A stretch of DNA of 64,000 nucleotides from sequence record MK327936.1; one strand, written 5' to 3'. This document shows, piece after piece, positions 39,941 to 40,758 of this stretch (within the stretch, counting starts at the first letter, position 1; the number at the start of each line of letters is the position of its first letter). Origin of the DNA: Escherichia phage vB_EcoM_G2540. Below the pieces are notes generated by a model, which made no database searches, was not told where the DNA came from, and was given only the letters and a program-made list of their open reading frames with translations. A program made the position numbers and the translations under genes.

Positions 39941-40225
39941 TTACAAAAGATTTTTTGCAATAATTTTAAGCTGAGCTACTGAAATATGCTTGGCTTTAAA
40001 CAAAGCAGTTTCTTCAGCAGGGGAGATAACGATTGTAGCACCATCTTTCTTAGCGGACCATCCATCACCCAGGTAAACAGTACCTTTGACTTCTTCGCCA
40101 TCAACCAGGCTAATCATCGGTTTACCTTCACGTCCTTTGTTTGCTTTAATAACTTCAGAAGTAAGGGTCGCTTCAGTCAAAGTAGAAGCGTTAGTCGTTG
40201 AAGTGAATTCTTGATAAGTTTTCAT
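39941..40225 (-). CDS. ipI: Internal protein I (IPI-like; capsid-packaged anti-restriction protein)
   Basis: 94 aa; starts MKTYQEF (IP capsid-targeting peptide); own early promoter; T4 ipI position before 57B. Confidence 0.65.
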   Translation of the reverse strand: MKTYQEFTSTTNASTLTEATLTSEVIKANKGREGKPMISLVDGEEVKGTVYLGDGWSAKKDGATIVISPAEETALFKAKHISVAQLKIIAKNLL

Positions 40226-40260
40226 TTTATTTTCCTAAATTAATAAATGTGTTGATGGAG

Positions 40261-40290
40261 ATAATATCACTTCTCCATCGTCGTGTAAAC
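40261..40290 (-). promoter_or_regulatory. T4-type early promoter upstream of ipI
   Basis: TTTCACAAAGTTGTTTACA-17-TATTAT. Confidence 0.6.
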
Positions 40291-40302
40291 AACTTTGTGA
40301 AA

Positions 40303-40758
40303 TTATTTTAAATCGTCTGCCCAATCAAGCTTAAGAGGTTCTTTGTATTCACGATCTAATACGACCGGAATTTGTACATCACCGCTAAATGATAAGGGCC
40401 CAACATTATAAGACAATGTTATATGCGGTGTGTAATCATCAAAATCATGTGTAGCACCTAGCGCCCGCGCATACATGTGTCGACAGCACAGATATTCAGA
40501 ATCTAGTACAAGTACAAGAGTAGATCCATCTTGTGTTTTCCATACTTCTAAATGTCCAGAAGAAGCTACTTCAAAACTTCCGCTTGATGGAACATACGGA
40601 ACATTTACTCTTGAATAACATATGGTCGAATGAATTTTTTCTCTAGGAACTGGATTAGGAACACGTAAAGAGCGCTGGAGTTCTTCCAGCGCATCAAGTG
40701 TTAATTCTGAAAACTTAGCTGCTACATAAAGACCCGTTGAAAAGTCTTTAAATTCCAT
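40303..40758 (-). CDS. 57B: 2H-phosphoesterase gp57B (Acb1-type cyclic-oligonucleotide phosphodiesterase)
   Basis: 151 aa; two H-x-T/S-x motifs (HSTI, HITL) typical of 2H phosphoesterases; T4 57B position and size. Confidence 0.75.

What the first reader, a model, noticed from the sequence alone, without database searches (positions are those of the whole stretch)
39941..40758. Adjacent anti-defence genes: IPI-like internal protein and 57B (Acb1-type 2H phosphodiesterase)
ORF 40303..40758 has two H-x-T/S-x motifs (HSTI, HITL) and the size and position of T4 57B. T4 57B is Acb1, which degrades the cyclic-oligonucleotide signals of CBASS. Next to it, ORF 39941..40225 starts MKTYQEF and matches the position of ipI; T4 IPI is injected with the DNA and inhibits a type IV restriction enzyme. 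Both have their own early promoters.
Basis: established knowledge. Interest (0 to 1): 0.45.

Follow-up and report, generated by a model that had tools for sequence, protein, structure and literature searches.

The report
T4-type Acb1 and IPI genes
These are the ordinary, already characterised T4 genes 57B (Acb1, which destroys the cyclic-nucleotide alarm signals of the bacterial CBASS defence) and ipI (a protein injected with the phage DNA that blocks a restriction enzyme), sitting in a T4-like coliphage in the same place as in T4.

Summary
Both ORFs exist at the stated coordinates, on the minus strand. ORF 40303..40758 is 150/151 identical to T4 57B/Acb1. Its only change is R to C at codon 91. 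The HxT/HxT catalytic tetrad and all five published ligand-contacting residues are intact. ORF 39941..40225 is T4 internal protein I: 91% identical as precursor and 73/76 identical in the mature part. It keeps the N-terminal capsid-targeting leader and an L-T-E|A protease site. Gene order matches T4 (1, 57A, 57B, ipI, trna.4). Exact protein matches place the window in Escherichia phage vB_EcoM_G2540.

One claim is wrong: 57B has no early promoter of its own. Its ATG overlaps the 57A stop codon (TAATG). The two early-promoter cassettes in the interval flank ipI, one driving ipI and the other driving trna.4 downstream. 57B lies downstream of sequences identical to the mapped T4 middle promoters P57A and P1, which fits the reported middle/late expression of T4 57B.

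This is already known biology, so interest is low. In passing, I found a roughly 2 kb deletion elsewhere in the window. It fuses DenV(1-97) to Vs.3 and removes vs.4/acb2, so Acb1 is the only known anti-CBASS gene in this window.

The parts
40303..40758 (-). 57B / acb1 coding sequence (151 aa plus stop). Catalytic residues are H43, T45, H112 and T114, equivalent to T4 H44, T46, H113 and T115.
   Evidence: 150/151 identical to T4. Pfam PF23474 scores 201 bits. PDB 7T26 matches at E=3.5e-62. Of 13 nucleotide differences from T4, 12 are synonymous.
39941..40225 (-). ipI coding sequence (94-aa precursor plus stop).
   Evidence: Pfam PF11634 scores 173 bits. PHROG 4363 is 'internal virion protein'.
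40172..40225 (-). IPI propeptide and capsid-targeting leader, MKTYQEFTSTTNASTLTE. It ends in the gp21 protease motif L-T-E.
   Evidence: alignment with T4 MKTFKEFTSTTTPVSTITE. The 2JUB chain starts at the next residue. The L/I-X-E rule and the role of the leader come from PMC9026906.
39944..40171 (-). Mature IPI* (76 aa). It differs from T4 IPI* by I28V, A65V and H67Q.
40261..40289 (-). Early (sigma-70 type) promoter of ipI: TTTACA-17-TATTAT with an extended -10 TG. The predicted transcription start is near 40254.
   Evidence: It matches the PST/T4 PeSL promoter consensus TTTACW-N17-TAYWAT (PMC4122927).
40254..40279 (-). 8-bp stem-loop (GATGGAGA...TCTCCATC) spanning the -10 box of the ipI promoter. 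This is the stem-loop part of a PeSL-type cassette.
   Evidence: the 77-nt spacer folds at -14.1 kcal/mol, z=-2.4. T4 has a different stem sequence (GATGAGGTA...TACCTCATC) at the same place.
39893..39921 (-). Second early promoter cassette, TTTACA-17-TACTAT. It lies downstream of ipI and upstream of trna.4, so it is not a 57B promoter.
   Evidence: It shares the exact 16-mer CACAAAGTTGTTTACA with the ipI promoter.
39885..39916 (-). Stem-loop (ATAGGGT...ACCCTAT) of the downstream cassette.
   Evidence: -21.1 kcal/mol, z=-4.0.
40758..41000 (-). 57A (tail-fibre chaperone). Its stop codon overlaps the 57B start codon (TAATG).
41000..41725 (-). Gene 1 (dNMP kinase), first gene of the tightly overlapping 1-57A-57B unit.
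41235..41258 (-). MotA-box middle promoter P57A, inside gene 1 (TGCTTTA-11-TAAATT).
   Evidence: 100% identical to T4 over 61 nt. The T4 P57A start site at 74877 lies 228 nt upstream of the 57A ATG, which maps to about window position 41228.
41751..41774 (-). MotA-box middle promoter P1 (TGCTTCA-11-TATAAT) upstream of gene 1.
   Evidence: The T4 P1 start site at 75393 lies 19 nt upstream of the gene 1 ATG, which maps to about window position 41744.
41356..41363 (-). TATAAATA late-promoter motif inside gene 1. It is a possible source of late read-through transcripts into 57A-57B-ipI. This is motif evidence only.
   Evidence: The window holds 13 such motifs against 10.6 expected, so the motif alone is weak evidence.
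39679..39864 (-). trna.4 (61-aa predicted membrane protein), the gene served by the downstream cassette.
   Evidence: no amino-acid differences from T4.

Best explanation
The interval holds two independent, already characterised counter-defence genes of a T4-like phage (Tequatrovirus, most likely vB_EcoM_G2540).

(1) 57B/acb1 encodes a 151-aa 2H phosphoesterase.
- It is made inside the infected cell as the last cistron of the 1-57A-57B unit and is translationally coupled to 57A.
- It is transcribed from the MotA-dependent middle promoters P1 and P57A, and possibly from a late promoter inside gene 1.
- It binds cyclic di- and trinucleotides that contain an adenosine and cuts 3' of the adenosine by metal-independent acid-base catalysis on the H43/T45/H112/T114 tetrad. 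This removes the CBASS second messenger before the effector fires.

(2) ipI encodes a 94-aa precursor.
- It is transcribed from its own strong early-type promoter.
- The 18-residue leader targets it into the prohead core.
- The gp21 protease cuts after L-T-E18.
- Several hundred copies of the 76-aa IPI* are packaged, injected with the glucosyl-hmC DNA into the next host, and there inhibit a cognate GmrSD type IV restriction enzyme.

Shown here: sequence identity, conserved residues, gene order, and promoter and overlap anatomy.

Inferred from T4 experiments in the literature: enzymatic activity, packaging, injection, GmrSD inhibition, and use of the promoters.
For: Acb1:
- 150/151 identical to T4 57B.
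- Pfam Acb1 scores 201 bits against a cut-off of 27.
- 7T26/7T27 match at E=3.5e-62 over residues 8-148.
- H43, T45, H112, T114, Y11, W73, F106, E140 and W146 are all invariant against T4. They correspond to the published H44, T46, H113, T115, Y12, W74, F107, E141 and W147.
- 12 of 13 nucleotide differences from T4 are synonymous.
- T4 57B was shown to be Acb1, and loss of acb1 sensitises T4 to CBASS.

IPI:
- 2JUB matches at E=7.5e-43, with 73/76 residues identical.
- Pfam IPI_T4 scores 173 bits.
- The leader and the L-T-E|A site are conserved.
- 21 codons carry synonymous changes and 3 carry non-synonymous changes in the mature part.
- DNA alpha-glucosyltransferase is present in the same window at 5753..6955, so the DNA is expected to carry the GmrSD substrate.
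- IPI function is documented.

Transcription:
- Searches give the promoter and overlap anatomy.
- T4 57B/acb1 is reported as predominantly middle/late.
Against: - No experiment was done on this phage.
- The R91C change in Acb1 and the I28V, A65V and H67Q changes in IPI* are untested. The published Ip-GmrSD pairs are highly specific, so the target range of this IPI allele could differ from that of T4.
- Promoter use is inferred from identity to mapped T4 promoters, not measured here.
- No TATAAATA late motif lies directly upstream of ipI. How IPI supply is kept up until prohead assembly is therefore inferred: either early protein persists, or transcripts read through from upstream.
Confidence: 0.93

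Rival explanations
1. The 57B product is an RNA-repair enzyme (a LigT-like 2'-5' RNA ligase or 2',3'-cyclic phosphodiesterase), as the 'RNA ligase' label in RefSeq and PHROGs suggests, and cyclic-oligonucleotide cleavage is incidental.
For: PHROG 755 is named 'RNA ligase', and many RefSeq records call the orthologue 'RNA ligase'. The fold belongs to the 2H phosphoesterase superfamily. The gene sits next to the tRNA cluster.
Against: The label comes from superfamily similarity, not from an assay. T4 57B was isolated by activity-guided fractionation as the cGAMP-degrading activity. Catalytic mutants lose the protection they give against CBASS effectors, and acb1 becomes conditionally required on a CBASS-expressing host. 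The curated Pfam family is Acb1.
Confidence: 0.03
2. This IPI allele is packaged and injected like T4 IPI, but it has a shifted or lost target specificity. It would inhibit a different GmrSD variant, or none, because of H67Q, A65V and I28V.
For: Ip1, Ip2 and Ip3 each block only their cognate GmrSD, with no cross-protection. A close GmrSD homologue (UTI89) is insensitive to IPI*. The ipI coding region is 89% identical to T4 at the nucleotide level, against 97-98% in the flanking genes, so it is a separate allele lineage. This exact allele is the minority form: 18 phage records at >=99% identity against 201 at 90-95%.
Against: The mature protein is 96% identical to T4 IPI*. Changes are mostly synonymous (21 codons synonymous, 3 non-synonymous), which indicates purifying selection on the same fold and probably the same function.
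Confidence: 0.12
3. The two genes form a co-regulated anti-defence operon or island, and their adjacency is itself functional.
For: They are adjacent and on the same strand, with only a 77-nt spacer and no canonical intrinsic terminator between them. Read-through from 57B into ipI is therefore possible.
Against: - ipI has its own promoter, and 57B is coupled to 57A and gene 1.
- The two products act at different times and places: one is injected before any gene expression, the other is made in mid-infection.
- The ipI slot is a swappable cassette bounded by PeSL-type promoter and stem-loop repeats.
- IPI is found in 290 phage records, against 1470 for Acb1.
- 57B belongs to the conserved block, and ipI to the variable slot beside it.
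Confidence: 0.05

Closest known systems
Bacteriophage T4 Acb1 (gene 57B, NP_049750.1; UniProt ACB1_BPT4) and Erwinia phage FBB1 Acb1 (PDB 7T26/7T27)
   Same: Same length class, position and gene neighbours. 150/151 identical to T4. The HxT/HxT tetrad, the four stacking aromatic residues and the adenine-reading Glu are all conserved.
   Different: - R to C at codon 91 (CGC to TGC). The equivalent FBB1 residue is Ser, so the position is variable. The same C91 allele occurs on three metagenome contigs in other backgrounds.
- The protein starts at the second Met of the T4 annotation. T4's ATGATGG reads ATAATGG here, which gives 57A a TAA stop instead of TGA.
Bacteriophage T4 internal protein I (ipI, NP_049749.1; mature IPI*, PDB 2JUB)
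   Same: Same locus between 57B and trna.4. Same leader architecture and gp21 cleavage site. The 76-aa mature protein is 96% identical.
   Different: The leader is one residue shorter and differs at six positions (MKTYQEFTSTTNASTLTE against MKTFKEFTSTTTPVSTITE). The mature part carries I28V, A65V and H67Q. The identical protein is annotated in Yersinia phage phiD1 and phage vB_EcoM-UFV05.
PeSL (promoter-early stem-loop) cassettes of T4-like phages (Arbiol 2010; Comeau 2014)
   Same: Both spacers flanking ipI match the PST/T4 consensus TTTACW-N17-TAYWAT and have a stem-loop over the -10 region. They share an exact 16-mer. PeSL-like elements at the IP loci were already noted in the literature.
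   Different: Nothing new here. The stem sequence of the upstream cassette differs from T4's while stem potential is kept.

Membership tests
Acb1 (Pfam PF23474; anti-CBASS 2H phosphoesterase) | Full-length match to the family profile above the curated cut-off | tested here: met
   201 bits against a cut-off of 27. Residues 8-149 cover profile positions 1-144 of 144.
Acb1 (Pfam PF23474; anti-CBASS 2H phosphoesterase) | Two HxT motifs forming the catalytic tetrad (T4 H44, T46, H113, T115) | tested here: met
   H43-S-T45 and H112-I-T114 are invariant in the alignment with T4 and aligned to the HxT motifs of 7T26.
Acb1 (Pfam PF23474; anti-CBASS 2H phosphoesterase) | Nucleobase-stacking residues Y12, W74, F107, W147 and adenine-contacting E141 | tested here: met
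   Y11, W73, F106, W146 and E140 are present and identical to T4.
Acb1 (Pfam PF23474; anti-CBASS 2H phosphoesterase) | 2H phosphoesterase fold with a C-terminal lid | not tested
   No structure was predicted. The fold is inferred from the gap-poor alignment to the crystal structure 7T26 over 141 residues and from 99% identity to T4 Acb1.
Acb1 (Pfam PF23474; anti-CBASS 2H phosphoesterase) | [quoted passage not shown] | not testable with these tools
   Shown for T4 Acb1 only.
IPI (Pfam PF11634 IPI_T4; injected GmrSD inhibitor) | Full-length match of the mature part to the family profile or the solved structure | tested here: met
   173 bits against a cut-off of 25. Residues 19-94 cover profile positions 1-76 of 76. 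73/76 identical to 2JUB.
IPI (Pfam PF11634 IPI_T4; injected GmrSD inhibitor) | N-terminal capsid-targeting propeptide of 10-19 residues ending in an L/I-X-E gp21 site | tested here: met
   The 18-residue leader MKTYQEFTSTTNASTLTE is followed by A19, which is the first residue of the 2JUB chain.
IPI (Pfam PF11634 IPI_T4; injected GmrSD inhibitor) | Location in the ipI slot between 57B and trna.4 | tested here: met
IPI (Pfam PF11634 IPI_T4; injected GmrSD inhibitor) | Packaging into the head, injection, and inhibition of GmrSD | not testable with these tools
   Shown for T4 IPI only.
T4 early promoter / PeSL cassette | TTTACW-N17-TAYWAT with a nearby stem-loop, placed in front of the gene | tested here: met
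   Met for ipI (40289..40261) and for trna.4 (39921..39893).
   The 57B ATG overlaps the 57A stop codon. No consensus match lies anywhere upstream of 57B on the minus strand.

The most novel reading that the evidence does not exclude
In this phage the second T4 anti-CBASS gene (vs.4/acb2) has been deleted, and Acb1 carries a rare R91C allele. Acb1 might therefore be the sole anti-CBASS activity, possibly an adapted one. Separately, the minority IPI allele (I28V, A65V, H67Q, different leader) might recognise a different GmrSD variant from T4 IPI. Either would make this phage a natural test case for how single substitutions retune counter-defence specificity.
Probability: 0.1. Interest if true: 0.3.

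Novelty: already known. Interest (0 to 1): 0.08.

Why it matters
It matters little beyond correct annotation. Many GenBank and RefSeq records still label these orthologues 'RNA ligase' or 'hypothetical protein'. The check shows they should read Acb1 and IPI.

For phage-therapy or host-range prediction, this phage should resist adenosine-containing cyclic di- and trinucleotide CBASS signalling and IPI-sensitive GmrSD enzymes. It lacks T4's Acb2, Ip2 and Ip3 within this window.

The promoter correction matters for timing. Acb1 is a middle/late intracellular enzyme, whereas IPI acts as a pre-made injected protein.

Tried and rejected
- I tried to read Rifat 2008 (PMC2255585), Bair 2007 (PMC1868451), Repoila 1994 (PMC395341) and Miller 2003 (PMC150520). 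I wanted IPI* mutant data, the original ipI-locus polymorphism and the T4 early-promoter list. None is held. The effect of I28V, A65V and H67Q could therefore not be judged against published mutants, and the 'early' class of the ipI promoter rests on consensus match and position only.
- A degenerate DNA pattern for the MKT(Y/F)(Q/K)EF leader found only ipI. Reading the ORF list turned up two further leader-bearing ORFs with other residues.
- The source genome (vB_EcoM_G2540) is not in the 'phages' collection. The best hit over the locus is 98% identical, so I could not check whether acb2 lies elsewhere in that genome.
- The Rfam scan of 35500..42500 found only the eight tRNAs.
- The terminator scan found no intrinsic terminator between 57B and ipI.
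- I did not run structure prediction, because 99% identity to T4 Acb1 and the solved relatives 7T26 and 2JUB make it uninformative.
- I considered and rejected the idea that the ipI ORF is one of the non-homologous alternative internal proteins that occupy this slot in other T-even phages. It is a true IPI orthologue.

Full report
**1. Observation**

The interval 39941..40758 holds two ORFs on the minus strand. One is 40303..40758 (151 aa) and the other is 39941..40225 (94 aa). The 151-aa protein contains H43-S-T45-I46 and H112-I-T114-L115. The 94-aa protein begins MKTYQEF.

Neither ORF is a chance reading frame:
- Pfam gives Acb1 (PF23474) at E=9e-60, 201 bits against a cut-off of 27.
- Pfam gives IPI_T4 (PF11634) at E=1.3e-51, 173 bits against a cut-off of 25.
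- PHROGs agrees.

**2. Source of the window**

The locus is 95-98% identical at the DNA level to about 300 Tequatrovirus genomes. Gene order is that of T4: 4, 2, 3, 1, 57A, 57B, ipI, trna.4, trna.3, trna.2, tRNA cluster, segB.

Three proteins encoded in the window match GenBank entries of Escherichia phage vB_EcoM_G2540 exactly, two of them on that contig only:
- QBO63381.1
- QBO63362.1
- QBO63373.1

The window therefore almost certainly comes from that phage. That genome is not in the local phage collection.

**3. 57B is Acb1**

- The protein is 150/151 identical to T4 57B. The single difference is R to C at codon 91 (CGC to TGC).
- Against T4, 12 of the 13 nucleotide differences are synonymous.
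- It aligns with Erwinia phage FBB1 Acb1 (PDB 7T26/7T27) at E=3.5e-62 over residues 8-148.
- Hobbs et al. 2022 identified T4 57B as Acb1 by activity-guided fractionation.
- They defined an HxT/HxT tetrad (H44, T46, H113, T115), stacking residues Y12, W74, F107 and W147, and the adenine-contacting E141 (PMC9117128).
- All nine residues are present here, with numbering shifted by one: H43, T45, H112, T114, Y11, W73, F106, W146 and E140.
- Position 91 is Ser in FBB1 Acb1, so it is a variable position.
- The C91 allele also occurs on three metagenome contigs next to other IPI alleles. It is therefore a circulating polymorphism and not a sequencing error.
- A transposon-sequencing study shows acb1 becomes conditionally required on a CBASS-expressing host.

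**4. The second ORF is a true IPI orthologue**

- The mature part (residues 19-94) is 73/76 identical to the solved IPI* structure 2JUB, E=7.5e-43.
- The precursor is 91% identical to T4 IPI.
- The 18-residue leader MKTYQEFTSTTNASTLTE (T4: MKTFKEFTSTTTPVSTITE) ends in L-T-E followed by Ala. This fits the gp21 protease rule L/I-X-E and the 10-19-residue capsid-targeting propeptides of T4 internal proteins (PMC9026906).
- The mature protein differs from T4 by I28V, A65V and H67Q.
- Within the mature coding part, 21 codons carry synonymous changes and 3 carry non-synonymous changes. Nucleotide identity is only 89%, against 97-98% in 57B, gene 1 and trna.4.
- ipI is therefore a separate allele lineage set in conserved flanks, under purifying selection on the protein.
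- The identical protein occurs in 36 contigs, including phages phiD1 and UFV05.
- T4 IPI* is packaged at about 360 copies, injected with the DNA, and inhibits the glucosyl-hmC-dependent type IV enzyme GmrSD of E. coli CT596 and Eco94GmrSD. [quoted passage not shown]
- The window also encodes DNA alpha-glucosyltransferase at 5753..6955. Pfam AGT matches at E=4e-237 and PDB 1XV5 at E=8e-258. The phage DNA should therefore carry the modification that GmrSD targets.

**5.

The T4-type early-promoter/PeSL consensus TTTACW-N17-TAYWAT (Comeau et al. 2014) occurs 13 times in the window. All 13 are on the minus strand, against 0.43 expected by chance. Two of them flank ipI:
- 40289..40261 (TTTACA-17-TATTAT, with extended -10 TG) lies 36 nt upstream of the ipI ATG.
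- 39921..39893 (TTTACA-17-TACTAT) lies downstream of ipI and upstream of trna.4.

Other features of these two cassettes:
- Both carry the exact 16-mer CACAAAGTTGTTTACA.
- Both have a stem-loop over the -10 region, with folding z-scores of -2.4 and -4.0.
- At the ipI copy the stem sequence differs from T4's (GATGGAGA/TCTCCATC against GATGAGGTA/TACCTCATC), but pairing potential is kept.
- Such cassettes at the internal-protein loci are already described.
- The ipI slot is known to hold unrelated injected type IV restriction inhibitors in other phages.

By contrast, 57B has no promoter of its own:
- Its ATG overlaps the 57A stop codon (TAATG), and the 57A ATG overlaps the stop of gene 1.
- No early consensus match lies upstream of it.
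- MotA-box middle-promoter matches lie at 41258..41235 and 41774..41751.
- These two stretches are 100% identical to T4.
- Their positions correspond to the mapped T4 middle promoters P57A (start 74877) and P1 (start 75393) of Hinton 2010, Table 1.
- A TATAAATA late motif lies at 41363..41356.
- This fits the report that T4 57B/acb1 is expressed mainly in the middle/late phase.

**6. Mechanism**

Acb1 is made inside the infected cell as the last, translationally coupled cistron of the 1-57A-57B unit. It destroys adenosine-containing cyclic di- and trinucleotide CBASS signals by metal-independent catalysis on the HxT/HxT tetrad.

IPI is made from its own promoter and targeted into the prohead by its leader. 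gp21 trims it after E18. It is then packaged and injected into the next host, where it blocks a cognate GmrSD.

The two genes are neighbours but are regulated separately and act at different stages. 57B belongs to the conserved block. ipI sits in a swappable slot beside it: IPI is found in 290 phage records, against 1470 for Acb1. Sequence identity, conserved residues and signal anatomy are shown here. Activities, packaging and promoter use are inferred from the T4 literature.

**7. Comparison and novelty**

Both proteins pass every sequence-level membership test for their families. Only the biochemical and virological features are untestable here. Nothing in the interval departs from what is known for T4, so the novelty rating is 'already known' and interest is low.

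The residual open points are small. They are the effect of Acb1 R91C, and whether the minority IPI allele has the same GmrSD specificity, given the strict specificity of the Ip-GmrSD pairs.

**8. Seen in passing**

- The ORF at 31066..31650(-) is a chimera. It consists of DenV residues 1-97, a 6-aa linker (the last 18 nt of vs.4 read in another frame), and full-length Vs.3.
- The chimera was created by a deletion of about 2 kb between two TTCC tetranucleotides.
- The deletion removes the DenV C-terminus, vs.8, vs.7, vs.6, vs.5 and nearly all of vs.4/acb2.
- T4 Vs.4 to Vs.8, IPII and IPIII find no match anywhere in the window.
- No record in the phage collection spans the deletion junction. The chimeric protein is known only from vB_EcoM_G2540.
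- Within this window, Acb1 is therefore the only known anti-CBASS gene.
- Two further ORFs carry internal-protein-type leaders: 31709..31990 and 36185..36658.
- A 171-aa ORF absent from T4 lies between trna.2 and the tRNA cluster.

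Noticed in passing
window 31066..31650 (-); junction near 31342..31360: A 195-aa chimeric ORF: DenV residues 1-97, a 6-aa linker TRGKIL (the last 18 nt of vs.4 in another frame), and full-length Vs.3. It arose by a deletion of about 2 kb between two TTCC tetranucleotides. The deletion removes the DenV C-terminal 41 aa, vs.8, vs.7, vs.6, vs.5 and nearly all of vs.4/acb2, the second T4 anti-CBASS gene. T4 Vs.4 finds no tblastn hit anywhere in the window. No record in the 50,697-record phage collection spans the junction. The exact protein is known only from phage vB_EcoM_G2540. DenV is probably inactive; that is inference.
   Followed up: partly
window 31709..31990 (-): A 93-aa ORF with an internal-protein leader ([15 protein letters not shown]|A) lies directly downstream of the lysozyme gene e, where T4 has ipIII and ipII. 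PHROG 3499 'internal head protein' matches at E=1e-46, and there is no Pfam family. The exact protein is seen on 541 contigs. T4 IPII and IPIII have no homologue in the window.
   Followed up: partly
window 36185..36658 (-): A 157-aa ORF starts MKSYAQFLNEAVLNE|ASST. This looks like a capsid-targeting leader with an L-N-E gp21 site. It lies between the e.8-like gene and tRNA-Arg, where T4 has rnaC and rnaD. PHROG 2280 (unknown function) matches, and there is no Pfam family. It is a candidate further injected protein of unknown target.
   Followed up: no
window 38488..39003 (-): A 171-aa ORF of unknown function (PHROG 2290, no Pfam) lies between trna.2 and tRNA-Gln. T4 has no gene there, but phage 235Ecol030PP does.
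   Followed up: no
window, minus strand: 9785, 10230, 14621, 18328, 21306, 22748, 23228, 26825, 31031, 31678, 35988, 39893, 40261 (start positions): Thirteen matches to the T4-type early-promoter/PeSL consensus TTTACW-N17-TAYWAT, all on the minus strand, against 0.43 expected by chance. MotA-box middle-promoter matches number 20 against 6 expected, and 15 of the 20 are on the minus strand.
   Followed up: partly
window 37044..38401 (-) and 37123..37788 (-): Eight tRNA genes (Arg, Met-CAT, Thr, Ser, Pro, Gly, Leu, Gln) with the GIY-YIG homing endonuclease segB between tRNA-Arg and the other seven, as in T4. The tRNA that ARAGORN calls Met (anticodon CAT) sits where T4 annotates tRNA-Ile.
   Followed up: no
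window 5753..6955 (-): DNA alpha-glucosyltransferase (Pfam AGT E=4e-237; PDB 1XV5 E=8e-258). This implies glucosylated hmC DNA, the substrate of the GmrSD enzymes that IPI counters.
   Followed up: yes
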